This document shows, one piece after another, positions 19,369 through 51,200 of a stretch of 64,000 nucleotides of DNA. Both the position numbers and the translations under genes were made by a program. Each line of letters starts with the position of its first letter. Positions within the stretch are counted from its first letter, which is position 1. Under the pieces are notes generated by a model. It was not told the origin of the DNA, made no database searches, and worked only from the letters and a program-made list of their open reading frames with translations. Source of the DNA: Mytilus trossulus (lineage: Eukaryota); contig NC_086380.1 of assembly GCF_036588685.1 (NCBI RefSeq), positions 70,184,001 to 70,248,000 of the forward strand, given 5' to 3'.

Positions 19369-22300
19369 TTAATAAACACAAAGGAATCTGAGGAACGGCG
19401 TTATTTCGGAATCAAAAACATCATTATATGAATCAAAGTACATAAGAGGATTATCGGACGTGATCTTTATCAGCCCCGAACATTCCTTATACGTTGATTT
19501 TGATACCAGACAGCTAGGTTGACACATTACACCGTTTGAGTCGTACACCCTAACGTATGCTTTTGTTTCAACAGATATTGGCTTCTCGAAGGCAATAAGC
19601 GCAATAGATTCAGAGGAACGAGTGCGCTCATCTATAGAAATGTAGTCCAAATGTCTACCGCTATAGGAAAATCCATCAGTTTGAAATGTAATGTTAAATG
19701 TTCTTTTGTTTATAATTTCATTTCCTAAGTTTCGATTTCTCTTGTGTTTGCTTATGATTATTATTGGGGTGGTTGCAAAATTGTCGAATTTATATTTAGT
19801 ACTACTCAAAGAAACAAATTTTCTCATCTCTTGTCTCAGGCGAAGATTTATATCAAATCCAATTTTGACATTATTGCCTGTTAAACTAAAATCAACAGAT
19901 CTGCGACCCCTTGTTCCAGGATTATCGAAGTGCGTACTAAATCTTCTCGTAATTGTTGGCGCTTTTGAATTTCGAGTTAGTTCACTGTTCTCTTTAGCTC
20001 CGAATGCTGATATGTCTGGTAGAGATCCTAGTGCCTGTTCTATATGTGATGCAGCTACAAATCCGCCTCCTATCTGTGGGGCATCTCTATAACTTCCTTC
20101 TATTCGCGATGCATCTCCATGTCCACCGCCTATCTGTGTTGAGGCTCCCATTCCATTTCCTATCTGTGATGCCCACTCCTGTCCGCCTCCAATCTGTGTT
20201 GAAGCTCCCATTCCACCTCCTATCTGTGATGCCCACTCCTGTCCTCTTCCTGTCTGTGTTGAAGCGCCCATTCCGTCTCCTATCTGTGATGCCAACTCCT
20301 GTACGCCTCCTATCTGTGTTGAAGCTTCCAAACCGTCTCCTATCCACAAGGCACTTCTTTGTCTCCCTTCTATCCGTGATGTAACTCCGTGTCCGCCTCC
20401 TATCTGTGATACCCACTCTTGTCCTCCTCCTGTCTGTGTTGAAGCTCCCATTCCATCCCCTATCTGTGTCACATCTCCATGTCCTCCGCCTATCCAAAAG
20501 TCACTTAATTGTCTCCCTCCTATCTGTGTTGCATCTCGTATTCCGTCTCCTATATGTGATGCATCTCCATATCCTCCTCCTATCCCTAAGCCACCTCTAT
20601 GTCTCCCTCCTATCTGTGTTGAATCTCCATGTCCTCTTCCTATCCCTAGATCACCTCTATGTCTCCCTCCTTTCTGTGTTGCATCTCCATGTCCTCCTCC
20701 TATCCCTAGATCACCTCTATGTCTCCCTCCTATCTGTGTTGCATCTCCATGTCCTCCTCCTATCCCTAGATCACCTCCATGACTCCCTCCTTTCCGTGTT
20801 GCATCTCCATTTCCTCCTCCTATCCCTAAGATACCTCTATGTCTTCCTTCCATATTTGATGCATCTCCATATCCTCCTCCTATCCCTAAGCCACCTCTAT
20901 GTCTCCCTCCTATCTGTGTTGAATCTCCATGTCCTCCTCCTATCCCTAGATCACCTCCATGACTCCCTCCTTTCCGTGTTGCATCTCCATTTCCTCCTCC
21001 TATCCCTAAGATACCTCTATGTCTTCCTTCCATATTTGATGCATCTCCATATCCTCCTCCTATCCCTAAGCCACCTCTATGTCTCCCTCCTATCTGTGTT
21101 GCATCTCAATGTCCACCTTCTATCTGTGTTGTATCTCCTATTCCGTCTCCTATGTTTGATGCATCTCCATATCCTCCTCCTATCTCTAAGCCACCTCTTT
21201 GTCTCCCTCCTTTCTTTGTTGCATCTCCATGTCCTCCTCCTATCCCTAAGTCACCTATATGTGTTGCATCTCCAAGTCCGCCTCCTATCCCTAGATCACC
21301 TCTATGTCTTCCTTCTATATGTGTTGCATCTCCAAGTCCGCCTCCTATCCCTAGATCACCTCTATGTCTTCCTTCTATATGTGTTGCATCTCCAACTCCT
21401 CCTCTTATCCCTAGATCACCTCTATGTCTTCCTTCTATATGTGTTGCATCTCCAAGTCCTCCTCTTATCCCTAGATCACCTCTATGTCCACCTCCTATCT
21501 GTGTTACATCTCCAAGTCCGCCTCCAATCTGTGATGCCCACTCCTGTCTGCCTCCTATCTTGATCAATGATGAAATAGCTTGCTGACCCAAAAGTTGGTT
21601 AAGATTCATGAAAAATCTTGGAATTGTGACCCTTTTTCCCTTTTCCTTTGACGGGTACCAATTCCGAACTGTTCTAAATCCTTTAAGACCAATAAACTCA
21701 TACCGAGATCTGGAAACACATGCCTGTTTACTTATATCACAGAACAAAAAGCCATTAAATGCTCCTCCGCAGTTGTTACGACAAGTTGGGGCAGGTGCAT
21801 ATCTATAAATTTGTTTTGTAAATGAATTACTAAATCCTTGAATGTTTGTTTTTTGAGGTCTCAAATTATCCACAAGTCTATTTGGCATATGCTCTAATAT
21901 AGTAGTTGGTGGATAGTCTGTTTCTGAATTAATTCCTAATTTGGTTTGGCATTCTCTGAATTTTTCCCATAGGTAGTCTATGAAGCAGTGGTGAAGCCAG
22001 AAAATTGGGTCCATAGGACTTAAAGTTATATCTGCCATATGGCCAGTATTTCCTCCAACCCACCTGTGAACATCATCATGGTGTGACTCTAGATTGGCCT
22101 GATCACTATTTGGAGCTGTTGGTCTTAGAATTTCCCGGTGGTATCTTTTTCTAAACACTGCTTTTAACCTGTCTGGGTCAATGGGAGAGCCTTTTATTCC
22201 TAGTTCACGTCGTAACAACGTACTTGGTTTTGTTGGAGTTGACCAATATGCGAATGGACCTGTATATACAACTCCTTTTGGGTTCCCCAAAAATATTTCA

Positions 22301-25300
22301 GTAAATAAGATAGAATCCTCTTGATTGTCCATCAAAAAATCTGGTCTTGAATTCCAGTATGGAAGAGTCACTCCGCTATTATATTCCCGAAGAGCCTCCT
22401 CGAATCTGTCTCAATAGAAATGTGGATATTAAAGCGAGTCGTCAAAATTAATCAATTCAAAGAATAGAATAAGTAGGTAAAGTCACTTGCATGTATTGAT
22501 TAAGTACTGCAAAACTAAAAATTCTGCGATGTTTTCCTTATTGCGAAAATTGCGAAGAAATAGGTATCACTTTGTATGCAGCATTTAATGAAATAATCAA
22601 CATGAGTTCGCTCGCATTTTTGACAATTCTTCAAAAATGTGCATTATGAATATATCCAAATTTATATTATCATGATTAATATTATAAGTACAACATTTTA
22701 TAAATTTTATAAAAATAAAGAAAACATTAGTACACCGTGCTCAATAGTCATAATTCGATTATGCAAAACAAATCCAGGTAACAAACGGAAACTTCAACAA
22801 AAGCAAAGGGCAACATACATGGAAACGGACTGTAGATAACAACTGCTTGGTACAGGACATTTTCAGAAAATATGGGGGGGGGAGGTGTGAACCTGGTTTT
22901 ATGGCTAACCAAACCTCCAATGGTAGAAACACAATAGCGCTAAAATGAAAACACTACGTGACAGCAATACAGGACAAACAAACGTTTGAACACTCAACAC
23001 GAATATATACATAAATAAAAGATATAGTCATAGTACATAACAACATGTAAACCGCAGAAAAACAACGGACACTTCCCATGAATTTACGACAGCCCACCAT
23101 GCAGGACACCAGAAACGAATTAAAACTCAGCGTCATATGAAATGATCAACGCCACAACAAGGTACAATTTTAAAAATTCGGTTATTTTATTTATGGACAC
23201 TTAACACGAATTTTTAATTGGGAGAGAGTTTTTTATTGTGTCACTTAATTTCTTTTCTAATCATGTCGGTTTTTCTTTTAAATCAAAACTGTGTATCAAC
23301 ACAAAAAAAAATCCTGTGCGTATAGTTGCTTTAAACTTCAAATCATATATAATGAAGTAGCCAATGTTTTTTTTGTATCTTAACTGTCACATACATATAG
23401 AAAATAAAAAAAAAACAGATAACTGTAATATATATAATGCAAGATCATGTCTGACCAAACAGTAAACAGTATTATTGTTTCTTACGTAAAAATAAACTCA
23501 TCATAAGGCCACACCAATTTGATTCCTTGTTCGACGGACCCGCCCGCACCTATTTTTTTCAAAACAGAATTTTTTTTATTTTTATTATTTTCCCGCTTCC
23601 CGCATCCGGAAATGAAATCATGTCCATTTCCCGCACCGTTTTTTTGTAAATATTATAAAAAGATCTCAACATTTGTTTATAAAATCACAGTCTAGGCTTT
23701 ATATAACGATTTTAAACCTATCAGTACCCCACAACACTGTTAATATCTGCGAGAATGTTTGTTTCAGCTTGAAACCAATTTATTTCACCTGGGAGTGCTC
23801 CGATATAAATATATAACCGGACCAGTACAGAACAAAACGTTGGTTTCTTTCCCCCTAACTTATATTCCCTATAACAAAATGTTCGTTGTTAAAATAAAGT
23901 ACAAAGAACTTCTGAAGGATTTGCCTTCAACTGCAATTATAATGTATGATGACGATCATACCTGCTGCAGGTTTGCGCACCTGTCCAGGTTTATTCAGGG
24001 ACCTGTTGTTCAGCCGTTATCGTTTGTTGATGTGGTTCATTGGTATTTTCCCGTTTGGAAATATAAATTAGATCGTTGGTTTTCCTGTTCGAATTGTGTA
24101 CAATACTAAGTTGTGGTCCCTTATAGGTTGCTGGTTGGTCTGGATCAAAGCTCTGTGTACTTTGACCTATGTTTGTTATTATCAGGTTGAGAACAACCCT
24201 CCCTCAGACAAGGGCCCTGAAGGGGTCATTTTACCATGTTTACTGATGTAAAAAAGAAAATAGAAATACTAAGGATTTGTATAGTGCTACTATACAAAAC
24301 CTTTGACAACTTAGAATGTTTTTCTCAAAAAGAGGAGAAATACATCATATGTTAAACCACTTTTCTAGAAGAGGGATGGGTCCACTTACATTTTTTTTAT
24401 TTTGAATATTTAAACTGTTAAAGTAAAGGTGTTAACAAGGTTAAAGTCCAGGAATATTACAAAATTTTTGGACATGTTTTGACCATTTAATACCAAATAT
24501 TATAGTTCTTTGGGAAAATATTAGCCCTTTTGTACTTGAAGTTTTTTTACAAAAAAAAATATATTATAAATTATACATGTTATATGACCCCTCATAAAAG
24601 GGATATTCATTACATTAAAAGGGTTGTTCTGAACCTAATTATGACTTGGATGGAGAATTGTCCTATTGTCAGTCACACATACATAGACCAGATTTAATTA
24701 TTCAATTATTTCTTGTTGAATGGAAGGGAAAAAATATTTCATAAATTAAAGAAATGTCAAGGTACAAGTGATAAATCAAGTTTTAATATAGTCAAAACCT
24801 ACTATTTCATATTAACAAAAAAAATTATAATCGCTCGCCTTTACTTTTTAAGCTTCGCCTCAAAAATTTGCAAATTAAATATTTTTTTATTAAAATTTTC
24901 AAATCGCTCGCTCGCCCCAATTTTTGAAGTCCAAAAATCCGTAGAACAAGAAATTAAATTGGTGTGGCCTAAGTGTAATCAGTACTTAAACCATATAGAA
25001 AGCCAATGGGGTCAAAATTCTTAATTCGTAACTTGTCAATTTGTAACGTGTAGTTGTGTACTTTCATAATTCGTAATGCGTGAATTGTCAGTTTGTAACT
25101 TGTATATTTGTAATTTCAAAATTGTTAATTCGTAAGTTGTCAATTTGTACATTGTAACTGTGTGATTTCGACATTCTTTATCAGTAAATTGTCAATATTT
25201 GTATTGATGTTTGTAACGTGTAACTTGTCGACTCGTGAAATGTCTATGTGTGAAATGTCAATGTGTTAAATGTTGTCGTTGTACTATGCTAACGATCATT

Positions 25301-28300: not shown

Positions 28301-29806
28301 TGCTCTTCAACTTTATAGTTGTTTTGGCTTTCGAACTTTTTTCATCTGAGCGTCACTTGTTAGTCTTGTGAAGACGGAACGCACGTCTGGCGCATTACAT
28401 TTAAAACCTGGTACCTTTTGTTAGCTATCAGACGTGTATTTCTGTCCTATATTTTTTTCAATTTATATGTATCGTAGTCCTGTCATGTAATGTTGTCCTT
28501 TTAATATTAAATTAGACATTGTTATTAAAGCGGGAAGTTTGGCATGCCACTAAACCAAGTTCAACCCACCATTTGTTTTCTTAAAATGTCCTGTACCATG
28601 TCAGGCAATTGCCATTGTTATATTATAGTTCGTTTATGTGTGTGTTACATTTCAATTCTGTGTTTTTGTGGTGTCGTAGTTCTCCTGTTATATTTGATGC
28701 GATTCCCTCGGTTTAGTTTGTAGCCCGGATTTGTATGTTTTTTCTCAATCGATTTATCAATTTCGAACACCGGTATACTTATGTTGGCTTTATATAACTA
28801 GAAAATTTGGCATAGTATGGCGATCGAACAATTTTCATTCTGCCATATATAACCAAATTATATGATTGCGTTAAATAACGAAAAATACGGACTGAAAGCG
28901 GAAGCTTCATTTATAAAAAACGAGAAGATATTTGTGTAGTGAAGATGACGGGTAAAAACAAACAGGACGGTTACACCTATATGGATGTATTGAAATTGGT
29001 AAAAAGGTTGTAAAATAAAATGTTATTCTATATACATGTTCTTTTTTAATTTAAAAATACTAAATATTTATCTATATACACTGATGAAGACATAACTCGT
29101 TACATTAAATGGAATCTCTTAGCAAAAGGACAATATAGATCGTAAAATAAAAAATACATTCAAGGAAATATTGAGTTTACCTTTATGAGTCGGAAGCAGT
29201 CTTTAGTTTAGGAATTTGTTATTTCAATCTGGTTAGTTTGTTTAAGATAGACAGACATCGTTGGTTGTTAAACAAAATATTGTTTTCAATATTAGACAGG
29301 CGTATGCACAAGTGGTTAACGCTGGATTTTACTTAATGTTTGATTCACCAGAATATATCTAGTTTTGGTAGTTATCAAACAAATTGAACGAAGAAAATTA
29401 TAGAAAATTCGAACTTTCTGATCGTTACCATGGTTACTTATAAACTTACCGTGTCACTTTTCAAGGCTTTTACTGCGTCGATGAACTTTTGAAATTCATT
29501 TTCACTCAATGTCCGTATTTCTTTCCTTACTCGCAATCTGTACCGTGTTTGTCGTCTCATGCGATAATGTAATTTTCTGCCGAGCGAATCGAGCCATTCG
29601 AAGGCATCCTTCCTTAAACCTATTGAGCTTTCATTGTTGTACATATGTTCCAAAAAACTTTCTAAACAGTTCTTTTGAACATCATATCGAGTGATGTTCT
29701 TATCAGCTTTTTCCAAGTAGCATTCTTCTAACTTTGGTGGAAACACATCTTCCATAATAAGCCCTGACGACGGTATAAGAGCCAGCAAAAGTAAATAAAA
29801 CGTCAT
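19369..29806 (-). CDS. Secreted tyrosinase-like (type-3 copper) protein with Gly/His-rich repeat insert; coding exons 29806-29450, 27086-26974, 22405-19369; in-frame TGA at 21108-21106
   Basis: Signal peptide MTFYLLLLALIPSSG; RVRKEIR motif; CuA His triad in the 113-nt exon missed by the ORF track (LMHQ..SAHDGPNFVSWHR); LPYWN; CuB HHDDVH...SPMDPIFWLHHCFID; GT-AG introns in phases 0 and 2; Cys-containing C-terminal domain. 589 aa to the TGA, 1168 aa if read through. Confidence 0.92.
20030..21560 (-). repeat. Coding minisatellite, 30-nt units (60- and 180-nt higher order) encoding IGGGHGDATQ / IGGRHRGDLG / IGGGQEWASQ decapeptides
   Basis: Column periodicity visible in the sequence; 20761-20880 is identical to 20941-21060. 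Confidence 0.95.
23507..24969. mobile_element. PIF/Harbinger-type non-autonomous element in tyrosinase intron
   Basis: ~32-bp TIR GGCCACACCAATTT.ATT.CTTGTTC.ACGGA, TAA TSD at 23504-23506 and 24970-24972. Confidence 0.85.
24184..24636. mobile_element. Nested MITE inside the Harbinger-type element
   Basis: TIR AGGTTGAGAACAACCC / GGGTTGTTCTGAACCT; interrupts a copy of the common interspersed repeat. Confidence 0.6.
24994..26481. mobile_element. 1.5-kb element with ~310-bp TIRs and 6-bp TSD (IS3EU-like termini)
   Basis: 24994-~25310 is the reverse complement of ~26180-26481 (e.g. GTACTATGCTAACGATCATT / AATGATCGTTAGCATAGTAC); TAT...ATA termini; AAACCA at 24988-24993 and 26482-26487. Confidence 0.75.
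27100..28243. repeat. ~55-bp tandem minisatellite (~12-13 units) interrupted by a MITE
   Basis: Unit AACAAATTACATTCTGAATGACATATGTAACCTAAAAATATGACATTGGCGATTG; copies at 27112, 27167, then continuous ~27650-28243. Confidence 0.9.
27196..27648. mobile_element. Tc1/mariner-type MITE with internal CACCATA/CACCATT microrepeats
   Basis: TIR CAGTCCTTGGATGGTGTAAACTTCCC / GGGAAGTTTACACCATCCAAGGGCTG, TA on both sides; splits a satellite monomer at GACATATGT^AACC. Confidence 0.85.
28247..28425 (+). repeat. Hammerhead-family repeat fragment, core degenerate
   Basis: GAGCGTCA-CTTGTTA-GTCTTGTGAAGAC-GGAAC-GCAC-GTC-TGGCGC at ~28348-28393. Confidence 0.65.
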
Positions 29807-30437
29807 TGTCTGTAAAACATTAACAATACCTAAAAGACGAAGATCCGTTTGGCAGTATTTGTTATTAAAAATGTGGTATAATAATTTAAATGTTTAGGTT
29901 AGTTTCGTTACTTATAGTGGACAACTATTTATTACTAAGACTTGATGAAGTTCACTGACAGTAGGTTTTGTTACGCCTAGGCTTGGGAAATTGGAAGACA
30001 AATGCTCACAATAATCTTAGCAGATACAGTTTGTTGAATATTCTCTTTTACCTCATACCACATTGTGGTGCATCCAAGAAAGACGGGTACTACAGGTCAT
30101 ACAATCTACAATAACATTCCTAACGACTGCATGTTCAAAATGTAGTATAGAGCAGGGTATATATTCATAGTACATTAAGATATTCTGGAACTCAAATGAA
30201 GTGTTATACTTATCATGCTGTTTTGATAATGACTTATAATAAGAACTTTCTTTATACATGATATATTCAAATAATGGGGAAATTAGATTAAGAAGACCCT
30301 ATATATAATATCAAAATAAGATGATTGCCAATGAGACAACTATCTACCACCATTCTTATAAAGTTGATGTAAGTAATAAGTGGCATCCGTACGGCATTTA
30401 ACAATTAGACAAACCCATACCATAACGTCTACTATAA

Positions 30438-30844: not shown

Positions 30845-30908
30845 AAGTACTTTACCTTACTTCTAGGTTATAAAACTAATGAAGACAACGTTGACTTCCA
30901 TTTATATA
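30845..30908 (-). promoter_or_regulatory. Putative tyrosinase TATA box, initiator and short non-coding first exon
   Basis: TATATAAA (30908-30901), TCATTAGTT ~25 nt downstream, then GTAAGG/GTAAAG donors near 30860-30851; the ATG exon starts at an acceptor (TTTTACAG^ACAATG, 29809), which implies an upstream exon. Confidence 0.55.
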
Positions 30909-31079
30909 CCAAAAGCTAAATAAATGATGGTGGTACATGTGTTATTAATTGACTAAAAAGAGTGAGTAATTCTTGGAAAACATATGTGTTTTGTAACGTA
31001 AATTGATTTCGTACTGATACTTAATATACTGAACCGCAAAAGAAACGTCGTATTTTTTTCGAAAACTCAAATTTTCAAA

Positions 31080-31272
31080 TACTGTCGATTCATTATTATT
31101 CTTGGATACAAATTTTCGTTGTTTTCGAGGGTAAAAGTGAACCACGAATTCAAATGTTCAACAAATTACAAATTTTCTATAGGCTTTGTGTGCAGAGACC
31201 GGTAAAACCACGAAATCAAATATCCTCAATCCACGAAAATTGATACCGTCGAAAATAAATGAGTCGACAGTA
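31080..31272. mobile_element. TA-flanked MITE (CTGT.GATTCATT family); related larger copy at 32335-33178
   Basis: TIR TACTGTCGATTCATT / AATGAGTCGACAGTA; second pair TACTGTGGATTCATTT / AAATGAATCCACAGTA splits the Tc1 DDE region. Confidence 0.75.
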
Positions 31273-31363
31273 CACTGAAAAAAAATTACATTTATTTCAG
31301 TTAGGTAAATTATCTTCAAATGAATCTAATTAGTTATCAAAAGTACCAGGATTATAATTTTAT

Positions 31364-31407
31364 ACGCCAGACGCGCGTTTCGTCTACATAAGACTCATCA
31401 GTGACGC
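31364..31407 (-). ncRNA. Minimal type I hammerhead ribozyme with intact core, within a retrozyme/PLE-type repeat (31332-31648)
   Basis: Minus-strand RNA GCGUCA-CUGAUGA-GUCU(UAUGU)AGAC-GAAA-C-GCGC-GUC^UGGCGU: canonical CUGANGA and GAAA boxes, stem II, palindromic GCGC loop III, GUC cleavage triplet, stem I closure. Confidence 0.85.
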
Positions 31408-34400
31408 TCAGATCAAAATAGTTAAAAAGCCAAAACAAATACAAAGTTGAGGAGCATTGAGGACCCAAATTCCAAAAAGTTGTGCCAAGTACGGCTAAGG
31501 TAATCTACTCCTGGGGTAAGAAAATCCTTAGTTTTTCGAAAAATTCAAAGTTTTGTAAACAGAAAATTTATAAAAATGACCATATAATTGATATTCATGT
31601 CAACACCGAAGTGCTGACTACTGGGTTGGTGATACCCTCGGGGACGAATTGAATCTCCGTTATTAATTCGGTCGTCCAAATATTAGTTTTGCTGGGTCTG
31701 TGGGACACGTTTCGCAGTCAAATTTCATGATGATAAGATGCTCGTTGAATCCGTGCCTCAATAAGGGTAATTGAGAGGTGCGAAGTTTTTGTGTCATCAT
31801 AATCTGTTGGATGTGGTACTAATGCTACGACTGAACACACGATAAGGAGAACAAGTATAATGACGTTTGAATGCTGGACAGTGACTTCAAGTGGTTGAAA
31901 ATGCATTTAACTGCAATATACTCACCATCCAACGTCAACCTGAACGCTACAATGTAACAAACAGTACATATGACCGTCCTCGTACGGGTCGTCCCAGTGT
32001 AACAACATTGCGTCCGGATAGCTTAATCTTACGACAAAATCTGCAGAACCGGTTCCTCTGTGCAACTCATACTGCTCGTTAGACAATATGAATGAACCAG
32101 AGACCACTAGTCGGCGTCGATTAAGATCTCGTACATGAGTTGTCGTCGTCCTGCCAGAGGACCTATTCTCCCACCACTTCAACGTCTAGAACGACTGCAG
32201 TGGGCCACCCATCGACAAAATTGGGCACATCAGCAGTGATAAACGGTTATCTTTTCAGACGAAACCCGTTACTGCATTTCAAATGCAGTAAACATGACAC
32301 GGATCTGAGGAAGACAGGGCAAAAGATATGCAAATACTGTGGATTCATTTATTTTCGAGGGTATCAATTTTCGTGGATAAAGAAAAAAAGACGTTTCGTG
32401 GTATACGTAAATTCGTGGATCGCTGATCACAAAATTAAAAAAAATAAGATACATAATTCGTGGATTTCTTTTTGATTTAAGAGATCATATAACCTCCTTG
32501 GTTTTATTAATAATAAAACAAACAAAAAAGGAGTTCGTTGAAAAAGTTTTGAATTGTCAAAATCCTCGTTTGATCATTTTAGGTTAAGTGTTCGTTGAAA
32601 ACTTCTATAACAATAAAATAATGGACAAAGACAACTAATTATTTGTTTGTTTTACAATTTATAAATGCTTGTCGAGATTCTATAAGGCTATCAAAACTTT
32701 ATGATTGAAAGCTCATTTCCCTCATCATGATATAATAAACAGTCATATAAGTAAAAGGTGTGAAAATAAATGTTTCTGTCATAAACAATATTACCTACGG
32801 GCAATATCCCCGTACTTAATCCTATTGATTTTTAATCACTAGTAAACCAAACTTTGACACGGTAATTAACAACTTGCAGTTATTTTCCTTGAACAGTTTT
32901 AATCAATTTAAAAAGTAAATTACCACTGATATTTGATATATTTATTATTGATTTAATTAAAATACTTGTATCTTCTTTCAATAAAAAACACGTGTTATGC
33001 TACAATGTTTATCGCTAGTCAACACTATACTAGAACCGCATAACATATCCGGAAATAAACATCCGACTCCATACATTTATCGGGATTATTCTTCGTTGAA
33101 TTCTTAAATTCGTGGTTCGCTGTGACCCACGAAACACACGAAAATTGGTATACCACGAATAAAAATGAATCCACAGTAGCTGTATGATGCAAAGAGAACC
33201 ATGTAGAGGTCCAAGCATTATGTTATGGGGCGGAATCGGCTTGAACCATAGATTAGGGACTGTTGTCTTTCAGAATTTTTGAGCAGGTGGAGGAAATGGT
33301 GTTAATGCAGCCCGGTTTACCGATCAAGTTGTGCGACCACATGTTGTGCAGATTTTGCTCGCTCTCAAAACAACAACTGCTGTGGAACTGCTAGCATCTT
33401 TTTCTGCAGGTATGGGCTAGCATTCCTATGCACTTTATCAACCGTCTACCACATTCCATGTACATGAAATGTCGGCCCATAATGTACGCGTTTGTAGGAT
33501 ACACACACTACTGACTGATAACCTGTATTAGTTAATTCTGTGATATGGTGGTGGAAAACTTTAATTTATTTATGAACAGTGAATGAACTGAAATGATGTG
33601 AATTGTTTAAATAACAAGGGTATTTATACGCCCATTCAATAATAGAATTACCATTTATTCTTTCATCATCTTTGCATAAAATTCTTCTTCGACGTTTCTT
33701 TTGCGGTTCAGTATATATAGTTCTAGTAATAATAAAAAGTACCAGCAACATTATTATGTAACCCGGACACCAAATTGGAAGATAACAAGGTTATGATTTA
33801 TGATAATAATAACATAAATATTTTTTTTATATACAGTTTTGATCATGGATCCGGTATCTTTCCTATAATCTTGAGCATTTCAATATAAAACCAGTTCCAA
33901 GAAAGTAAGGGTTTAACCACAAGACTGAAATAGAATGAAACAAGGATTTCATCAAGGATGTCCAATTATGTGAAAATTTCGTAGAACTTATCACTATGTT
34001 TAGAAAACCATGACATGTTTGCATGCAATTTTTTGTATACTTAAAGTTGGTACTCCTCGTAAATATTCGGCATGTTATGATATTCACTGAAATAGTTAAG
34101 CAAATTCGAGAAACAATTCCAGAGTTGAATTAGTTTTGTGGGTACCATTTTCACCTTGAAGTCCCTGTTACTTTTATGACCAGTTGTTTTGCTCTACAAT
34201 TTGGTTATTTTTTCTATATTGCATATAAAACCAGAAATGTTTTACAAAGTAATTAAGGTTTAAAATTACAACTTCATACATCTTTAAAAAATTATATGAT
34301 TTATGGGGTTAAATCATTTTTACTGTGACTTCTCATGACTTTCTATCATTTTATAATTTTCAAATTATCTTTGAGCTGATTGTTGCAATGCATTAAACAA

Positions 34401-34789: not shown

Positions 34790-36010
34790 CAACTATCGAT
34801 GCCTACACACATATCCTCGAAACAGATCTAGATGCTATCAGTTTTCTTATGTTAGTGCGTGGAATCACTCGCCTTTCCAGTGGCAACATTTGTATGAGCT
34901 GATCATGGGTCAGATGCTGGGGGAGACGCTAGTGCACACGTTTGTCAAGTTGGTCCCGTATATTCTCAATAGGATTCAAATCCGGTGATTTGGATGGGTA
35001 ATAAAGCGCATTGGTGTTATTCTGATTAAGGTAGCCCATTGTTAAACCTGAGGCCTAGTATTTTTTTTCTGAAATAATTTCTTGTGTCGGTCAATAACAT
35101 GCATAATGTTGAAGGTTGAAAATTTTCTCTTTTGTACCTTTGAGCCATTAAATTATACGGAACATGTACCAATTCCATTTCACCGCCGTAACAGTTAGCC
35201 TCCAATATCATGACACTTCCAACGATTCCAAAGCTGTCCACTTCATGGACACACGAGGAAGCCAAACGTTTATACATGCACCGAAAACATGAGTTTTCTC
35301 ATCATGTTTCTGAAGTATAAAAAGGGAACTCATCACTGAACCGAATTTTGTGTCATTTGTAAACAGTTATCAGAGGTACCGAGGTAGTACTTTAATACGC
35401 CAGACGTGCGTTTCCTTCTACATAAGACCCATCTGTGACGTTCAGATCAAAATAGTTATAAAGCCAAACAAGTAAAAAGTTGAAGAGCGTTGAAGACCAA
35501 AATTTCCAAAGAATGTGCCAAATACGGCTTAGGTAATCTATTCCTGGGATAAGAAAATGTTTTTTTTTTCAAAAAGTTTAAAGTTTTGTAACAGGAAATT
35601 TATAATGATTACCATATAATTGATTTTCATGTCAAAATCGGACTTTAGATCGTCTCTGTAACGGCCAAATAATGGTTGCAAAACATGGCCTCCTGTTTCT
35701 AATGCCATTTTGTCCTAGTCGAGTGCGGACTGATAGTAAGCTGATTTTTCTCATTTCTGGTATTCCAACTTCAGTGTCTATTGCGGCAATTGTTCTATTC
35801 CATAAACTAAAAACCTGCATGTAACGATTTTGTCCAGGAATAGTTAGGAGATAATGTACTCTCCTCGGGCGATCCTCAGCACAGCTAGTCTGCTTGTATT
35901 TGTTCCAAAGTCGCGAAATTGTGCTCTGGTTAACAATTTCAGTTCTTGATACCTCACTTTCGGACACTTCGGTCTAGACCGCCGATGTTATTATTTCGAA
36001 AAGCGGTGTA
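34790..36010 (-). mobile_element. Decayed Tc1-family transposase (second element), split by a hammerhead repeat
   Basis: HTH region VNQSTISRLWNKY..EDRPR (35967-35632), RFSDE (~35335), GSVMIL (~35210), SPDLNPIEN (~34985-34960); TIRs not identified. Confidence 0.85.
35364..35633 (-). repeat. Hammerhead-family repeat copy (degenerate core) inserted in the Tc1 remnant; further degenerate cores at ~43035-43116 (+) and ~45605-45675 (+)
   Basis: Colinear with 31332-31600 over ~270 bp; core boxes mutated. Confidence 0.75.
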
Positions 36011-37006: not shown

Positions 37007-37994
37007 TTGAAAAACAAATTGTATGCGTGTTTTGTCTACATAAAACTGTAAACCAACTTAATTTCGCGGATAATTTTTTCTCGTTTTTTTCAATTTTAAA
37101 CCATTTTGTGGCTATGACATTTCGATTTTCTCATTTAAATGATGTAGTTTAATAAGAAAAGATCCAAATTTTACATATTTTTCTACTAGCAAAAGTCGCG
37201 AAAATAAATTGATCCGTCTGTTAAAGTTTATAAGTTTATTGGCTATCCTGCAATAAAATATTACATAAACATTTTATTTCTATGTCATGTAGTAGATACT
37301 TGTATATGACTTTTATGTATTGTTTCTGAACAAAGAGTTGCATGGAGACTATTTGGGGAATATTCAAGTTAGTATGGAAATGTTTAATCAATTGTTAAAT
37401 GTTGCAGATGATAGGTTTATTATAAGCATAAGGTAAGGGTTTTTTGGTGTTTATGACAGACCCTTGATAGATTTGAAAAAAGTTGTGTTAAATTACTACT
37501 GGTTATTGTTAATGTTTGTGCGCACAAATTGCGGCACTGATGCGTGAATTATGTCAGCAAAACATTTGAAACTGTTGCGGGGGTGTGGGTTTTGTTTTGG
37601 CACAGTATTGGACAATTTTGCTTAAATTTGCTATATAACGGAATGTAATAACATTCGTTGTAATGTGTTACGTTATAAAGTACGGTCCATTTTTGGAAGT
37701 TATGTGTCTATATATTTTCTCCAACATGCTATTTACATGTTTTGTATTGTAAATTATATATCATGTAATTATTCATCTCGATTGGAAATATGGAAATATG
37801 AAACATATTAAGTCATGATACTACGTATCACCAGTAATTCTGTCGTCATATTTTCCGTGAATTATATGTACCCGTACCTGAAAGTTTTTCCATAGTCGAC
37901 CGTTATGGCAACTCTGTGATTTGACATAGATATAATGTCATTTATTTATTTATAAGTTATCAAAAACACTCAATTATTAAAACTAATAACAGGA

Positions 37995-39228
37995 TAAATA
38001 CAACATTGCAGGGACCAATTGCAACAATGAAGACGTTTGGAAAGGGTGTAGTGAGTTCAAACACATGTCGTGTATCCCAATCAGAACAAAGGGAACACAC
38101 AAGCTCCGATAAGTGTACCTTCTGGAACAAATAAACTCGATGCGATTAGTGTTAATTTGAAACATACAATACAAACAAACATGCCAAACGTACGAGGATG
38201 TACCTGCCTCCCTTATAGTAAAATGATATTTACAAGTGTTGTTAACAACCAAATAAGCGTTTTAAAGCCAGACGGTTCAGCTGATTTCGATCTGAACACA
38301 ATAGAACCTGTTTTGGACGTAGTATATATAGGAGATAAGTGTGTTTATCGCTATTTTGTGCATTTTTCCTTTGATCTTTTTTTGTGATAATTTTCATATC
38401 ATGCTTCTCGCTTGAGATGGAAAAATTATCGCTAGAAACTAAGGAGGCCACGTGGCGTTGCTAACGAAATTGACATTGAAATTGACAATGTCGTCATAGG
38501 TAAAATAGCGATAAACAGATAATCATTGGTCATCTCAACTCGATTGCTTTTCTCACTTTCGATGTACCAGCTCAAGCGAGAAAATCAATCTCGTTGAGAT
38601 AATCAACGATAATCTATAAAGCTTTTACATCAGGTGACATTACAAATTCAAAGAAGATCAATATAATCAATGTCGAAAACAGAAATGTAAAAAAAGTATT
38701 GAACTTCACTTCATTAAATGACTGAGTAGCATTCAAAGATGGAAAGTTGATTTATTGTGCCGGAGAGCAGGGACTAAAGATGATCAGTCTCAGTGATGTG
38801 CAGGAGAACAGGGACTAAAGATGACCAGTCTCAGTGATGAATCCATAACTAGTATCACCACTACTAAATTGTCAAGTCAGGCAAACGTAGATTCAAAAGG
38901 CGACAAGTTGTTCTATACAAACGAAGTCAATCATATTGTCACCTGCTGTGATTTCCATGATAAAACACTCTGGACATTCAGCGAACCCAGTGCTTTGAAA
39001 TTTCCATGCAGTTTATTTGTCGACAATGATGGGAACGTATTTGTGGCAGGAGCACAATCTCACAATGTGATCGTTATATCTATCGATGGTGAACGCTATA
39101 GACAAATATTATCACATAAAGATGGACTTGACTGTCCAACAGCTGTGGAGTACGACCGAATGAACAATAAACTTTTAGTTGCTAATTATAACGAAATCGC
39201 TTTCGTGTATGACGTTGTCGGACAATAA
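37995..39228 (+). pseudogene. TRIM-like B-box/NHL copy A: 5'-truncated pseudogene (NHL/beta-propeller part only)
   Basis: Homologous to the 3' half of 54688-56373; B-box region absent; 275-bp insertion at 38345-38619, GGA>TGA stop near 38724, 41-bp tandem duplication at 38757-38838. Confidence 0.9.
38345..38619 (+). mobile_element. ~270-bp TSD-less hairpin element, copy 3, inserted in coding sequence
   Basis: Removing it restores GGA GAT AAG TGT GT^A GCT TTT ACA TCA GGT (GDKCVAFTSG), colinear with paralogs. Confidence 0.9.
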
Positions 39229-43803: not shown

Positions 43804-46524
43804 TGATTCTTGTAGATTGTGGCTTGTTAAATCGGAAAATAAGTTTTGAAATTACCTCCACAATATATTAGATATGTAATGTAAATATGATCACATGACG
43901 GTTAAAGTCCTTTCTTTATCTAAAGTTTTGTTGTACGCTCATCAGAAAATCTGTGGTTTGTATAGATTTTATCTGTATACTTTACCTTATAATCTGAAGC
44001 ACTTTTTTCCATGTCTTTCTATTCCTAATACGCACTTATTTTAACCAAAACATTCTATTTTTCAGTTTTACGTTAACAAAAAGTTTAGCCAATAACCAGC
44101 TAACGGATCCCCTATTTGAAATAACTATTCATTTCAGTAGATATTTTCGTTTATCCTTCTTTGTCGCTTACGTTGACAGTATAAAATGCATGTATTTCAA
44201 TTTCTGTTTTTGATTTACTTCTGTTGAGATGCTATTTCAAACGTGTCTAACCATCGAATTTCAATTAGAAATAGATTTGGGTCAAATAAAGGAACTAAAC
44301 CTGTGTATAATTCCTTCACATGGTTTTTTTTTACCTGTGAGGACTGGAATATTCTTTAATTTCTATCAACATGATCAAAGATTATTTCTTTTAGAATATG
44401 TAAATAGAACACGGGTTGTTATAATTTTAATAGTTCTTGTTACAAACATGTTTTTAATTTTCAACAGTATTCGCCAATATGTGGCTGTCACATATCTTTA
44501 ATGAGTTTTTAAAAGATCATCCTGAAAGGCTGTAGAACGACTGAGAATTTTTGCATTGGGAATTAAATTCCATGAATGATATTTTTCATAAAACTTAATG
44601 CAAAGACAGGTTGAAACCATAAATATATGTAAAACATTTTATGGAAGCCTTAAATCAAAACATTTTGTCAAATGAACATTTGGAGTTTTTAGTCTGAACA
44701 AGGCCGTTGATTCATGTTAAGTTAGTTTATACTATTATTACATGTACACACTATTTAAATGTATTAATCAAAGAATTTGTTTCCTGACATTTCTTTTGGG
44801 GGGAGGGTCATGTTGCATACCGATGTTAAGCACTGTCGAACATGATTTAATTTTCCAGAAGCACGACACTTTGTGATATATTCGGGAGAATTATTTGTAA
44901 TTGTCAATCATAAGTTAGACGTTAAAAGAATTTTGAGTTGGCTTTTTTCCTTTCAACTTTAATCCATAATAATCGTAATTTTTCTAGAAACTAGGTGTGA
45001 CACGACTGTACATATTTGCGTGTAGATATGGAAATACGCATTATTTGCACTTTGGAAATTCTTGCCAAAATAGTAAACACAGATATGGACAAATCAAACC
45101 ACGGATATCCTAAAAAAAAATAGAATTATTTAGCCTGCATGTTACGCTAGACACAGTTAGTATCTTGTGTTTTAGTTTGCTTCCTTATTTGTAGCAAATT
45201 CATCTTAGCCTGACATTACAGATAGGTATTTATGCTATATAAGTTGATAAAATTTAAAAGGGATTCTTCTGAACAAAGCATATTGTTTGAAATGTAGTCT
45301 ATAAGAGAAAACGCCAACTTGTTCATTAAGACTCTACACTCCCATCAGTTTTAGAACGTCAGGCATCAACAATAAAGGACGAAAACAGCCAACTGAATCT
45401 CGTTACTCGCATCGATTCACATATTATAATATTGATATGAGATTCGACCAGAGAATACGTTTGTTGTTCTACCAGTAATTCCAATCGAAAAAGTAGGTAC
45501 AATTTTAATTCGAATTTTGGCCTGAATTGTAACTTGAATTCTTTCAATACATGTGAATGTCAAACAAGGTCGAATATATTATTCGGCTTTATAACGTTTT
45601 TAAATTAGCGTCACTGGTGAGTCTAATGTAGATGCGTTTTGCAGATAAATTATAAGTCTGGTTACTTTGATAACAATTATCAAAGTGTGACAAATGTTAT
45701 ATTTTAACCATTAATGGGCCGAATCGGTTTGTCTATCTGAACTGTTATAAAGTTTCATTAATACCATTGATGACAATTATTTTTGAAATATTTTTTTGGT
45801 TGCTTTTAGCATCGACTGGTAATATTAATTTAACAATTATACAGAAACTATCATTGGGTAATATCTCAATCTGCCAGATTAGAAAATACAAAAATCATTA
45901 TTTTCATTCGAAAAAATGTTCCATTATAAATAAATATCAATATGTATACGGCACTCGTTCTATTTGAGCAGTCAAAATGCGTTGACCGTATATTTCTATG
46001 TCCTGATATCAATTTTCCTTATGAATATTTCCCCGTTTCTAAGCCTAGTTCTTATATCGTTGATATGTCAAGTCAGTGCACTTTTATTGTCTATGAATAC
46101 GACAAATAGACATACGGGATGTCTGCGCCTATGTTTGAAAAAGGACGAGCTTTTTAAAAATGATGATATATAATTAACGGCATTTATATAGCAGATATAA
46201 AATATAGGTCCTATTAAGTTTGTTAGAGATACAATCATTAAAGATGTGGTGGGGGAATTGATTATTCATACATTTATTAACAAAACATTTATAGATTTTC
46301 ATAAATGGATTTATACATTTCAATTCATAAAACTTTGGATAGACCAGTCGAGTTCAGTGGGCTATAGTAGTGTTGGCATTACATGGATAAAGATCGAAGA
46401 TTCTAAAAATCGGTGAAAACAGTAAAAAAAATACTAAAACATGGTAAATTAAAAAAAACAATGATGATACTTTTGTATGGTACTATTGCAGTTTAATATT
46501 CACTTACTTTTACATTTCAGAATA

Positions 46525-48201
46525 ATGGCCAGTAACACGTATGTATGTGGTATCTGTGATCATCGTCACGTAACAAAACCTTCAGTAGTCTGGTGTTTTG
46601 AATGTGATGAAGGACTTTGTGAAGATTGTAAGGAACATCATAATTTCTCTAAGAGTTCACGAAATCACGAAACAGTTCCAATTACTGAATATATGAAATT
46701 ACCAGCCAATATTTTGCAAATAGCGCAATTTTGCAACAAACATAACGAGAAATACGAACTTTTCTGTAGAAAACATGACTTTCCATGATGTACGAAATGT
46801 GTAGAAGATCATAACGGCTGTAATGATTTAACTGATATCAGAAACATGATACACAATGTAAAATCTTCAACTGCTTTCCTTGAAATCGAACACGCTTTGT
46901 CAGGAATCGCCGAGGATATTAAAATATTACGTATAAATTGCGAAGGAAACTTGGCATCAATTGCAGAGAAAAGAAAGATTGGTGAATTGGAAATTCAACA
47001 ATTTCGAAGAAAAATTGATGCCCATCTTGATAAACTTCAAGACCACATACTGAAGGAAATTAAAGCGGTTGAAGAAAAAAAAAGTAGCCAAATTCGAGAA
47101 TTATTGACGTCAATAATGCAAAAAGAAACGGAAACTTTGGGAATCAAAATAAACTTTCAAAATACGAAGCGGTATGCCTCAGATCTGCAAACTTTCTTTG
47201 CAATAAAACACATCGAAAAAGATATTACCAAAGAGAATAATTATATTCAGTTGATCAGCAAAAGCGAACAAATGCATCAAATCGATATATCGTGTAGAAT
47301 AAATACAGCATTGAAGGAATTCATCGCTACCGTGACTACTTTTGGGGAGGTTTTAATTAGCTCTAATTCTTTAAATATATCCATTGAGAACAAATGGAAT
47401 AAACAAGCTCAAATAAGTTTACCTCCTTCAAGAACAATATTTGATAATGTTAGTCTGAAGTTGAAACAAACAATACAAACAAACTGGCAAGCTGTCCGAG
47501 GATGTACCTTTCTTCCTGATGGTAAAATGGTGTTTTCTACTATAAGTACACAACTAGCAAGAGTTTTAAAGCCAGACGGTTCATCTGAATTTGATCTGAA
47601 CAACATTGGACCTGTTTGGGACGTGGTCTATACTGGAGATAATGATGTAGCTACTACTTCAGGAAATAAAAATCAAATCAAGATAATCGATGTCGAAAAA
47701 AGAAAAGTGAAAAAAACTTTAAACGTCAATTCCGCCAATAACGGAGTGACAATCAAAAATGAAAAGTTGATTTATTGTGCACGAGATCAAGGACTTAAGA
47801 TGATAAGTCTTAGTGATGAATCTATAACCACTATCAGCACTAGTAACATGTCATTTCAGGCGTACGTAAATACCCAAGGCGACAAGCTGTTTTATTCAAA
47901 CGAAGAAAATCACAATGTCACCTGTATAAATTTCCAGGGTAAAACACTTTGGACATTCAACGAAAGCAGTACTCTAAAATATCCCTTCGGTATATCTGTC
48001 GACAATGATGGGAACGTATTTGTAGCGGGAACACATTCTCACAATTTGATCGTTATCTCCTCAGATGGTCGACGCTATAGACAACTATTATCGAAGAAAG
48101 ATGGACTTGACAGTCCAACAGTTGTGGAGTATGACCAATCAAATAATAAACTTCTTGTTGCTAATAATTTTGGTAACACTTTCGTGTATGAAGTTGTATG
48201 A
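46525..48201 (+). pseudogene. TRIM-like (RING-less B-box1/B-box2/coiled-coil/NHL) copy B; full-length frame with one TGA at 46786-46788
   Basis: Acceptor TTTCAG just before ATG; CGICDHRH..WCFECDEGLCEDCKEHH, FCNKH..LFCRKH; NHL motif PFGISVDNDGNVFVAG; the two track ORFs share one frame. Confidence 0.8.
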
Positions 48202-51200
48202 CAATATGCTTCGTTAATACCATCTCATTCATATTGCACTACGCAAATAATTAATACTTATGGATTTTCTATCAGTCAACTTTATAGTGAATTAAACTTT
48301 AACACATATGTCATAATTAAATTGCAAACAGGAAAATCTTTGTTAAGTAAGTTCTAATCAGCAATCATATATCAAGTAAATCATGATAGGAAAAACAAGC
48401 TCGGTGAAAAGGACAGGAAAATATATCAACCAGACAGAATAAAAATAAAAATTGTTAACAAAATTTAAAAAATACTGACAGTCAACATAACAAACGAGAC
48501 AAAACTATGCCTAAAAACAATACAATAATTCAGGTGCCCTGGAATCTGCCATTATCCTACCTTCATTATCAATTATTTAAGTTAAATCAAGATATTGGTT
48601 AAACGAACAGTCTATCCAAGTATGTCTTGTAACTTATAGAACTGTGCGTTTATATGTGTGTTGGCATTTGTTTTTGTTGCACTATAGTGTTCCTAATGTT
48701 CATAGTGTTCCTAGTGTTCCTAGTGTTCCTCTTATAGTTGATGTATTTTCCTCGGTTATGGTTTGTCCCGATTTATTTGTTCTCTATCGATTTATGACTT
48801 TCGAACACCGGTACACTACTGTTGCCTTCATTTAGCATAGCTGGAATACATGTCAACATATGACAGTACGTACAGTTAAATGACAAACTTTCTGTGAAGC
48901 TACTGTTTGATGTATTCCGCTTAATAATAGAAAAAAGTCGGCACGTAAAGGTGAATAGTTGGTCAACAAGCTTGTTAAATCTTTTAGTAAAACATTGTTT
49001 AATAGAGGTTGTCTCATCTATGATTTTACATTAAAGTATCAGACCTTTATAAAATCAATTAAATTTATTGCCGATTATTTCAAAAACATTTTGACTTTAT
49101 CTTTTAAAGGATACTCATAAATTTTTCAACCAAGATGATGAAATGTCCTGGTTATCTGATTTGAATCGACTGAGGGGTAAATTTGAATCGATACTGTAAA
49201 ACATATAAAAATATGTTTTTTTTAAAGGGAACAGTGTGCCAAAAATGTTTTATGCGGAGATACAACTTTCCTTAAGATAAACAGGCCAAAGTGAATATTA
49301 ACAGAAAACAGTACGGCTTTAAAACAATTAGGACAGGCCTTTCAGTATATAAATTAAAGCTATGCAATGATTCGCTTTAACAAAGCATTTTTTTAAATTA
49401 ACAATGTCTTACCTGTACAATGTTCTTTCGTTGTATTGGGAAAATATAACAGTAATTTACTTTTAAAGAGGCGTGTTATTGATAAAACTACAGATTACTT
49501 AATATCACTGTCTAACCATAAGTGATTTCCAAAGTGCCTACTTAAAATACTTAGTATAGAATTTAACCAATACAAAAGTTTGAACGCCATAAAACTATAA
49601 CTCTATAGGCCGGGAACATGTTCCGTATAGAACTTAAACATATCAGGCATTAAACACCAGCAAACAGCATCGACTTACCATTAATAATTCCTCAAACAAG
49701 AGTCTAATGTTGGTCATTTTGCTAACTTATTTTTCAGATGAGGTCTGTACAAATGAAATGCGATAATTGGAATGTGTTACCTGATAGAACTTAATCTACA
49801 CAAAATACATCAGTAATTGTTATATTTTATATATTTGTGTCTAACAACTAATAATGTGTTTTTGCTTCGATATGTATGATTGGTATTGGTCTCTTTCTTC
49901 AGATTTGATATTCTATGTTGTGTCATAATATCAACAATCAATGTGTTTTGTAAAAACAATAAATAAGCAAAATAGACAAGTGTTTTGATTGACAGAAACT
50001 TTCCTGAAAGGATTCAAAATGTTAAAGAAAATCAATAGAATGCAATGATCTAATTGGTTAAGCAAAAAAAGGATGAACCGAGCGACGTACAAAATCAGCA
50101 AACATACAATTTTGAAATTATGCATGTACAACAAAGTTTTACTTTTATTCTTATTTTTTGTGACTTATCAAAATAAGTTTAAAAATTCCCGCCACATGAC
50201 ATGAGATATGTAATGTAAATATTATCACAAGACACAATATTGTACTTGTTTATCTGTGGTTTTGTTGAACGCCCATTAGAAAATTTGAGGTATGTAATGA
50301 TTTATTCTGTAGACTTTGCATGACATCTTGAAGCACATGTTTTCTATATCTATTTATTCGTTGTAAGTAATTATATTTGTGACGGAAAACAAACTTTTTT
50401 CCCGGTTTAACGTGTATGAATTGCTTTGCAGTTACATGTTTCACAATTTTATTATACCATATGAATTTATAAAATTGTTGTTCTTTTATTTGCCCTTTTA
50501 ACATATATCTCTTTTTCGTTCTTCAATCTACTGATTTTACGAATTGTCTAACAATACAATGACAAAAGCTTATCCCACATAGTCAGCTATAAAAGGCCCT
50601 AAAAAAGCGTCAATCAATTTGAACCAGAAAACTAACGAGCTAATCTATGTACAAAATAATGGACGATTTTTACACAACAACAAACGATGTCTTTTAAAAA
50701 TAAGCAATCAACGATACCAACTTGATTACATGTTTACACCTGGAACATGATATAGATATAGGAAGATGTGGTGTGAGTGCCAATGAGACAACTCTCCATC
50801 CAAATAACAATTTAAAAAGTAAACCATTATAGGTTAAAGTACGGCCTTCAACATGGAGCATTGGCTCACACCGAACAACAAGCTATAAAGGGCCCCAAAA
50901 TTACTAGTGTAAAACCATTCAAACGGGAAAACCAACGGTCTAATTATACTTTACAAATATACTTCTTATTCCTTTTATGTCTTATACATACAGTTAGAAA
51001 TAATAGAAAACTGAGGAATGGAAATACCCGTCAAATTATAAATAGAATTGCAGTAAAATTGACCTTTCCTATTGACTAGAATTGAATTATTTACATTATC
51101 AGGAAGCTTGTAATATTGCTAACTTGTTTTTGGTCTAGTCTATATAATTTGAAGGCGATGATTGAAATGTGATAATAAGATAGAATATAAATAGACATCA

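What the first reader, a model, noticed from the sequence alone, without database searches (positions are those of the whole stretch)
31332..31648. Intact hammerhead ribozyme (retrozyme-type repeat) just upstream of, and sense to, the tyrosinase
The minus strand has a complete minimal type I hammerhead with predicted cleavage between 31370 and 31369. Its palindromic GCGC loop III is the form known from Penelope-like elements and metazoan non-LTR retrozymes, which cleave as dimers and yield circular RNAs. This is the only one of six copies in the window with perfect core and stems. It lies ~460 bp upstream of the TATA in the same orientation, so it could cut read-through transcripts (inference).
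Basis: partly seen in the sequence, partly recalled or inferred. Interest (0 to 1): 0.7.

Follow-up and report, generated by a model that had tools for sequence, protein, structure and literature searches.

The report
Mussel retrozyme copy, likely Naiad-mobilised
This is one truncated copy of a very common mussel repeat that carries a self-cutting RNA motif, likely dropped near the tyrosinase gene by chance; the repeat family shares a folded RNA signal and its end point with Naiad jumping genes, whose enzyme likely copies it.

Summary
The hammerhead is real: core intact, stems paired, predicted cut 31370/31369, the only intact one of six window copies. But the identical 40-mer occurs 10,149 times in the genome, in a 356-bp tandem family that matches the published mussel non-LTR retrozymes by size and anatomy (PMC7229834; sequences not comparable). 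This copy is a young, 5'-truncated 0.9 unit with one ribozyme, so it cannot cut out a circle. It lies inside an old Tc1-like repeat, outside the promoter conserved in paralogues, and 0 of 10 paralogous upstream regions hold a sense hammerhead core. A role for the tyrosinase is unsupported. The family-level anatomy is more interesting: 42 of 46 insertions end 34-47 nt after the cut site, just before a stem-loop shared, with three compensatory pairs, with the start of an autonomous Naiad Penelope-like element whose copies end at the homologous point. Naiad reverse transcriptase is the likely mobiliser. My six paper searches did not find this link; this scan had noted it before on other DNA (16 findings).

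The parts
31331..31648 (-). Solo, 5'-truncated retrozyme copy: monomer phases 77-356 then 1-39 (0.9 of a 356-bp unit), one hammerhead
   Evidence: 319/323 identical to a natural array stretch; 2-10 differences to 107 full-length array units, mostly 3-7
31364..31407 (-). Type I hammerhead ribozyme, short helix III with palindromic GCGC loop
   Evidence: RF00163 33.0 bits, E 2.4e-4; core and stems checked
31369..31370 (-). Predicted self-cleavage site after GUC
   Evidence: sequence and Rfam alignment; activity not tested
31620..31648 (-). 3' half only of the stem-loop shared with Naiad (monomer phases 77-105; the 5' strands at phases 48-61 are missing here)
   Evidence: alignment A2, fold, pair counts
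31321..31327 (-). Candidate 7-bp target-site duplication, downstream copy (AGATTCA), 3 nt after the repeat end
   Evidence: ambiguous, a 7-bp target deletion fits sister elements too
31650..31656 (-). Candidate 7-bp target-site duplication, upstream copy
31649..32336 (+). Old TIR repeat, Tc1-like, into whose end the retrozyme inserted; continues at 31273-31330 and 31020-31080
   Evidence: 34 genome matches, the 33 others 68-84% identical; sister copies colinear across both inserts; weak PF01498 hit, E 0.012, below cut-off, 1 of 3 fragments
31080..31272 (.). About 190-bp inverted-repeat element flanked by TA, inserted in the same TIR repeat, between hammerhead and promoter
   Evidence: high depth in DNA runs
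30856..30908 (-). Predicted TATA box and short non-coding first exon of the tyrosinase, ending at a conserved GTAAAG donor
   Evidence: TATA and donor conserved in 7 of 10 paralogous regions; start site not shown by RNA
29450..29809 (-). First coding exon of the tyrosinase-domain gene (ATG 29806); PF00264 lies in the exon at 21109-22410
   Evidence: contigs of two guessed-RNA runs cover 29450-29768

Best explanation
This is a solo, 5'-truncated copy of a 356-bp hammerhead repeat present over 10,000 times in the genome, likely inserted by chance upstream of the tyrosinase and likely copied by the reverse transcriptase of a Naiad Penelope-like element. Shown: family, copy number, one ribozyme, nesting in an old TIR repeat, a fixed family 3' end, and a stem-loop and end point shared with Naiad. 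Inferred steps: (1) tandem arrays are transcribed, cut by the hammerheads and ligated to circles (published for mussel retrozymes). (2) Naiad protein binds the shared stem-loop at monomer phases 48-105, nicks AT-rich DNA and starts reverse transcription about 5 nt upstream of it, near phase 39-44. (3) It copies back across the cleavage junction for a variable length, here stopping at phase 77. The template must be a circle or an uncut multimer, because a cut linear monomer does not hold phases 1-39 downstream of the ribozyme. This copy lacks a second ribozyme and half of the signal, so it is predicted to be a dead end. It could cut any RNA that reads through it, but nothing indicates that this matters to the gene. 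Odds by step: family 0.95, passive at this locus 0.85, Naiad as mobiliser 0.75.
For: 10,149 exact 40-mers, control 0. Arrays of 0.9-19 units. 3' ends at phase 34-47 in 42 of 46 insertions, 5' ends spread over phases 13-350 in 44. Genome-wide, 20,783 copies of the 20-mer before the end but 6,389 continuing 12 nt further. Naiad family in the same genome: 4,277-bp tandem unit, 1,056-aa frame with N-terminal GIY-YIG, CxC, DKA and YIDD; its start reads like published Naiad_Mgal and Naiad_Mcor (by eye). 11 of 12 Naiad loci showed a 3' end, all at -39 to -46 from the shared motif; the retrozyme mode is -19, and the difference equals the 24-nt Naiad-only hairpin. Shared 13-pair structure: 98.3% of cells paired, 3 pairs changed on both sides, slid controls 23-48%. 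The core 11-mer stands 11 times in the Naiad supplement, each near the start or boundary of a different consensus. At least two further retrozyme families carry the same element. Internal initiation and ATT-preferring nicks are shown in vitro for another PLE (PMC11167929). Paralogue control.
Against: No biochemistry and no RNA from this locus. The three compensatory pairs are one evolutionary comparison (retrozyme against Naiad; 28 of 500 shuffles reach 3 pairs), and the structure was derived from these same sequences. Primary similarity alone is modest: BLAST E 8.8e-4, and 1 of 200 shuffles beat the local score. Only 150 of 615 GIY-YIG candidates were scored and 46 stretches fetched, so a closer helper may exist. 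The 46 insertions are not a random sample: they come from the 40 best-scoring candidates for this copy plus 8 from one contig; 2 duplicates were dropped; this copy is among them. Target-site duplications are weak: 9 of 44 reach 6 nt or more, against 10% of mismatched pairs (permutation p 0.015). Three further Naiad match ends lay at -60, -77 and -167.
Confidence: 0.72

Rival explanations
1. The copy acts on the tyrosinase: it cuts read-through RNA from upstream and so insulates or tunes the promoter.
For: Sense orientation, 461 nt from a TATA conserved in paralogues, intact ribozyme.
Against: Intactness is explained by youth (about 99% identical to arrays). 0 of 10 paralogues have a sense core. 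Tens to over a hundred such placements are expected by chance. No cis partner for a dimer. The monomer hammerhead fold is 5-9 kcal/mol above the predicted ensemble at 37 C, much as in array copies (nearest-neighbour model, no Mg2+). Cutting nascent RNA would not by itself stop the polymerase (my inference).
Confidence: 0.08
2. The family is mobilised by another Penelope-like element (a hammerhead-bearing clade or an unsampled Naiad family), and the shared stem-loop records ancestry only.
For: In Xenopus, retrozymes match pLTRs of annotated PLEs (bioRxiv 10.64898/2026.07.22.740005). Several other GIY-YIG families exist here. Naiads lack canonical hammerheads, so the ribozyme came from elsewhere.
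Against: The 4 non-Naiad loci fetched (L151-L154) showed no shared patch apart from inserted retrozyme pieces (their ends may not be fully in view). The ends of retrozyme and Naiad coincide, and three retrozyme families keep the element.
Confidence: 0.15
3. The copy arose at the DNA level (satellite excision and reinsertion, recombination) without an RNA step.
For: Long near-identical arrays exist, and local amplification by unequal crossover is proposed in print.
Against: A fixed 3' end with scattered 5' ends is the polarity of target-primed reverse transcription; all six window copies end near the same point.
Confidence: 0.05

Closest known systems
Mytilus galloprovincialis non-LTR retrozymes (Cervera and de la Pena 2020, PMC7229834; read parts 1-4 of 6, supplement unreadable)
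   Same: Tandem repeats of about 350-390 bp (cloned monomer 353 nt, here 356), thousands of type I hammerheads in more than one family, low GC, non-coding; PLEs proposed as helpers.
   Different: Sequence identity to the published clones was not testable. In the parts read the paper names no helper family, fixed 3' end or recognition element. This copy is a solo 0.9 unit and cannot yield a circle.
Naiad Penelope-like elements (Craig et al. 2021, PMC8557442; read passages, section 6 and supplement search hits)
   Same: Shared bipartite motif and stem-loop at the unit boundary, same 3' end point, 5' truncation, tandem insertions.
   Different: Naiads encode endonuclease plus RT and lack canonical hammerheads; the retrozyme is non-coding and has one per unit. 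The passages read do not describe the element or a retrozyme link beyond the general remark that retrozymes may exploit PLEs.
PAc Poseidon element of Anolis (Frangieh et al. 2024, PMC11167929; read parts 1-2 of 4)
   Same: Reverse transcription starts inside the RNA, downstream of the hammerhead; genomic ends fall on the initiation site; AT-rich (ATT) targets.
   Different: Autonomous, another clade, C-terminal endonuclease; there uncut RNA is the main template; no sequence comparison made here.
Vertebrate retrozymes as PLE derivatives (Li, Clavereau, Pollet 2026, bioRxiv 10.64898/2026.07.22.740005; read parts 1-3 of 5)
   Same: Retrozymes share sequence with PLE termini; solo monomers are regarded as non-transposing offspring; two hammerheads are required for an active element.
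   Different: No mollusc among the classes listed; link made through pLTRs in Xenopus; Naiad found only in the coral; 8 of 9 tested dimers did not cleave, a caution on predicted activity.

Membership tests
Type I hammerhead ribozyme (RF00163) | Conserved core CUGANGA, GAAA, NUH with three helices, helix I open | tested here: met
   33.0 bits is 1 bit under the gathering score of 34
Type I hammerhead ribozyme (RF00163) | Self-cleavage in vitro or in vivo | not testable with these tools
   a mussel family member cleaves at about 0.1/min; this sequence untested
Minimal PLE-type hammerhead | No helix III beyond the conserved nucleotides | tested here: not met
   extra C-G pair and tetraloop present (definition)
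Metazoan non-LTR retrozyme | 150-450 bp tandem repeat, one type I hammerhead per unit, GC under 50%, many copies | tested here: met
   356-bp unit, arrays to at least 19 units, 10,149 exact motifs; AT-rich unit seen
Metazoan non-LTR retrozyme | Active element has at least two hammerheads and can release a unit-length RNA | tested here: not met
   this locus has one; met by arrays elsewhere, so it is a defective copy of the family
Metazoan non-LTR retrozyme | Expressed as circular RNA | not testable with these tools
   only contigs of guessed-RNA runs were served
Metazoan non-LTR retrozyme | Target-site duplication, when present, longer than 4 bp | tested here: inconclusive
   7-bp candidate offset by 3 and 1 nt; 9 of 44 insertions reach 6 nt or more
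Published Mytilus retrozyme family (Mg353) | Sequence identity to the cloned sequences | not testable with these tools
   supplement too large to read; size and anatomy agree
Non-autonomous partner of Naiad | Shares terminal sequence or structure and end position with an autonomous Naiad in the same genome | tested here: met
Non-autonomous partner of Naiad | Mobilised in trans by Naiad protein | not testable with these tools
   needs in vitro priming or a cell assay
Naiad clade (for the helper, loci L143-L150, L155-L158) | N-terminal GIY-YIG, CxC, DKA, C-terminal RT, no canonical hammerhead | tested here: met
   PF01541 at residues 183-273; motifs read in the translation (Pfam gave no RT hit); no hammerhead core on the coding strand

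The most novel reading that the evidence does not exclude
Mussel retrozymes are hammerhead-bearing parasites of the hammerhead-less Naiad clade. They carry a structured RNA element, conserved in Naiads of bivalves and hemichordates, that recruits Naiad endonuclease-RT and fixes where reverse transcription starts on a circular RNA. An element of about 60 nt could then suffice to make a circle insertable by target-primed rolling-circle reverse transcription.
Probability: 0.6. Interest if true: 0.65.

Novelty: new variant of a known kind. Interest (0 to 1): 0.42.

Why it matters
The locus itself is ordinary: one of thousands of copies, with no sign of a job. The family-level link matters because the enzyme that spreads animal retrozymes and the place where it starts were left open in the papers read. 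A named helper, a defined 13-pair RNA element and a predicted start site make this testable in one in vitro assay, and would give a first cis-acting signal for Naiad elements, which dominate many bivalve genomes.

Tried and rejected
Empty-site allele: no listed contig from runs X1-X4 bridged the insertion point; the repeat swamped the joint table and 31626-31679 had no cover. So presence/absence polymorphism and the true duplication are open. Expression: no RNA holder listed; the two guessed-RNA runs are contigs and cannot show a start, strand or cut site. Published mussel sequences: supplement of PMC7229834 unreadable; the bioRxiv supplements were not seen and may bear on Naiad links. Single-strand folding did not return the hammerhead as minimum-energy structure in any context; rejected as evidence against activity, because array copies behave alike and a family member cleaves in vitro. 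The 29-nt retrozyme match in one Naiad subfamily was first taken for the Naiad end and rejected: Naiad ends map elsewhere. The microRNA hits are all below gathering score and unrelated. A homologue search for the tyrosinase failed on frame and was not repeated; the genus Mytilus is inferred from the Naiad match. No control at another phase was run for the genome-wide drop from 20,783 to 6,389, so part of it is plain divergence. The paper search for a hammerhead acting upstream of a promoter gave one unrelated review.

Full report
Observation. The minus strand at 31407-31364 holds a type I hammerhead: Rfam RF00163 matches over its whole length (33.0 bits, gathering score 34, E 2.4e-4), the core is intact and stems I, II and III are fully paired. 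The predicted cut is 31370/31369. Six fragments of the repeat lie in the window; four have a broken core and one has unpaired stem positions. The TATA box is 461 nt downstream on the same strand.

What the element is. The 40-nt hammerhead stretch occurs 10,149 times without mismatch in the 1.3-Gb genome (reversed control 0). It belongs to a 356-bp tandem unit. The window copy runs from monomer phase 77 through the cleavage site to phase 39, that is 0.9 unit with one ribozyme, and differs by 2-10 positions from 107 full-length array units: a young insertion. Size, copy number and anatomy agree with the Mytilus galloprovincialis non-LTR retrozymes of PMC7229834 (parts 1-4 of 6 read), where a single cloned repeat cleaved at about 0.1/min and circles were abundant in gonad and mantle. 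The supplement could not be read, so identity with those clones is inferred. The genus is inferred from the match of a Naiad in this genome to the published Mytilus consensus starts.

Dimer and circle claims. Two copies of the 44-mer cofold as the double hammerhead (-29.5 kcal/mol; monomer hammerhead -5.7), so the palindromic loop does allow a dimer. The monomer fold is disfavoured in the nearest-neighbour model (5.2 kcal/mol for 53 nt, 7.8-9.0 in context, 7.9-8.0 for array copies), but the published single-repeat construct cleaves. A solo copy has no partner in cis and, with one ribozyme, cannot release a unit-length RNA; the 2026 preprint uses two hammerheads as its criterion for an active element.

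Position. The flank upstream of the copy is an old dispersed repeat (34 matches). Sister copies are colinear across 31020-31080, 31273-31330 and 31663-31985, so the retrozyme and a 190-bp TA-flanked inverted-repeat element both inserted into the end of that repeat, which has Tc1-like remnants (weak PF01498 hit in 1 of 3 fragments, E 0.012, under cut-off). AGATTCA flanks the insert on both sides, offset by 3 and 1 nt; a 7-bp duplication and a 7-bp target deletion both fit the sisters, and no listed contig bridged an empty site. The gene model is supported: TATA box and first donor are conserved in 7 of 10 paralogous upstream regions, and the conserved promoter begins near 31028, about 300 nt downstream of the insert. 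None of the 10 regions (about 2-4 kb upstream each) holds a sense hammerhead core; 6 of 10 hold family fragments, 4 antisense (2 with a core) and 2 degenerate sense. With roughly 3,800-14,400 separate insertions, a sense copy within 500 bp upstream is expected at 22-166 genes, assuming uniform placement and 30,000-60,000 genes. The position needs no explanation beyond abundance.

Family anatomy. I mapped both ends of 46 insertions (48 loci fetched, 2 duplicates dropped; drawn from the 40 best-scoring candidates for this copy plus 8 from one contig, this copy included). 42 of 46 3' ends fall 34-47 nt after the cleavage site; the others lie at 11 (an internal deletion), 52, 93 and 341. The 44 5' ends spread over phases 13-350, and lengths run from 0.9 to 19 units. 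Genome-wide, 20,783 copies carry the 20-mer before that point and 6,389 continue 12 nt further (no control at another phase). This polarity is that of target-primed reverse transcription from a fixed internal start, as shown in vitro for an Anolis PLE that also prefers ATT targets (PMC11167929, parts 1-2 of 4). Short duplications are only mildly enriched (9 of 44 at 6 nt or more against 10% of 1,892 mismatched pairs; p 0.015).

The helper. A GIY-YIG search (150 of 615 candidates scored) gave a young family with a 4,277-bp tandem unit and a 1,056-aa frame with N-terminal GIY-YIG, CxC, DKA and YIDD, the Naiad signature of PMC8557442 (section 6). Its start is colinear with retrozyme phases 23-142. 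11 of 12 Naiad loci showed a 3' end, all 39-46 nt before the shared CTGCTGGTGGA motif; the retrozyme mode is 19 nt before it, and Naiad has a 24-nt hairpin inserted in between, so the ends are homologous (three further match ends at -60, -77, -167). Both fold the same two helices. On 10 aligned sequences from three retrozyme families, two Naiad copies and the window, 98.3% of 117 cells pair, 3 of 13 pairs change on both sides, and slid controls reach 23-48%. These changes are one comparison, not many (28 of 500 shuffles reach 3 pairs), and the structure came from the same sequences. The 11-mer stands 11 times in the Naiad supplement, each near the start or boundary of a different consensus, from bivalves and, by their codes as I recall them, hemichordates. 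Four loci of other GIY-YIG families showed no such patch. Of 1,527 variant motif matches I inspected 30, all retrozyme-like, including a second family of about 365-374 bp and a third with a different hammerhead.

Mechanism. Most likely Naiad protein binds the stem-loop at phases 48-105, nicks AT-rich DNA, starts about 5 nt upstream of the stem and copies back through the cleavage junction. That needs a circle or an uncut multimer as template; my data do not tell the two apart. The window copy stopped at phase 77, so it lacks the 5' strands of the element and is predicted to be immobile. Binding, priming, cleavage and transcription of this locus are all untested.

Novelty and verdict. The retrozyme family and the idea of a PLE helper are in print. 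Searches for retrozyme + hammerhead + Mytilus, retrozyme, Naiad + Penelope-like, Naiad + Penelope + non-autonomous + hammerhead, and two others found no paper with the Naiad link; the library lacks most subscription papers, 15 of the 55 retrozyme hits were not listed, and unseen supplements may bear on it. I reached the link before looking up earlier notes; this scan had recorded it in 16 findings, 8 shown, in at least 2 genomes, which is not independent evidence. Verdict: observation confirmed, family named correctly, regulatory role unsupported; locus ordinary, family-level mechanism testable. Interest 0.42.

Noticed in passing
L145:1054-1082, L146, L147, L149: One Naiad subfamily carries a 29-nt piece 27-28/29 identical to retrozyme phases 13-41 in its 3' region; neighbouring internal repeats lack it, so a retrozyme end seems to have been captured inside the helper.
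   Followed up: partly
L181, L137: A third hammerhead repeat family (about 350 bp) with a different ribozyme and a palindromic helix III shares the Naiad-type element and, in L181, the end point.
   Followed up: partly
L163-L188; window 12706-12920: Second retrozyme family of about 365-374 bp, about 80% identical to the first; the 12.7-kb window copy is closer to it.
   Followed up: partly
window 19369-22410 (-): The tyrosinase's last exon has a long Gly-rich repeat tail, and the frame changes near 21105: the PF00264-bearing frame stops and a 578-aa open frame continues, a possible frameshift or assembly slip.
   Followed up: no
window 46468-62637 (+) and 37983-39228: Cluster of B-box plus beta-propeller (TRIM/NHL-like) genes, some split by stops.
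   Followed up: no
window 51945-53041: Three 364-bp tandem copies, 100% identical, not matched by the retrozyme queries.
   Followed up: no
window 35632-35973 (-): Another transposase-like remnant (resemblance recalled, no Pfam hit) lies directly beside the degenerate retrozyme copy at 35358-35635.
   Followed up: no
L046, L047: About 1,054-bp tandem units made of diverged retrozyme sequence and TTAGGG-like repeats near the start of contig C1.
   Followed up: no
L003, L087: Inverted retrozyme segments lie next to the 5' junction, a structure described for PLE insertions.
   Followed up: no
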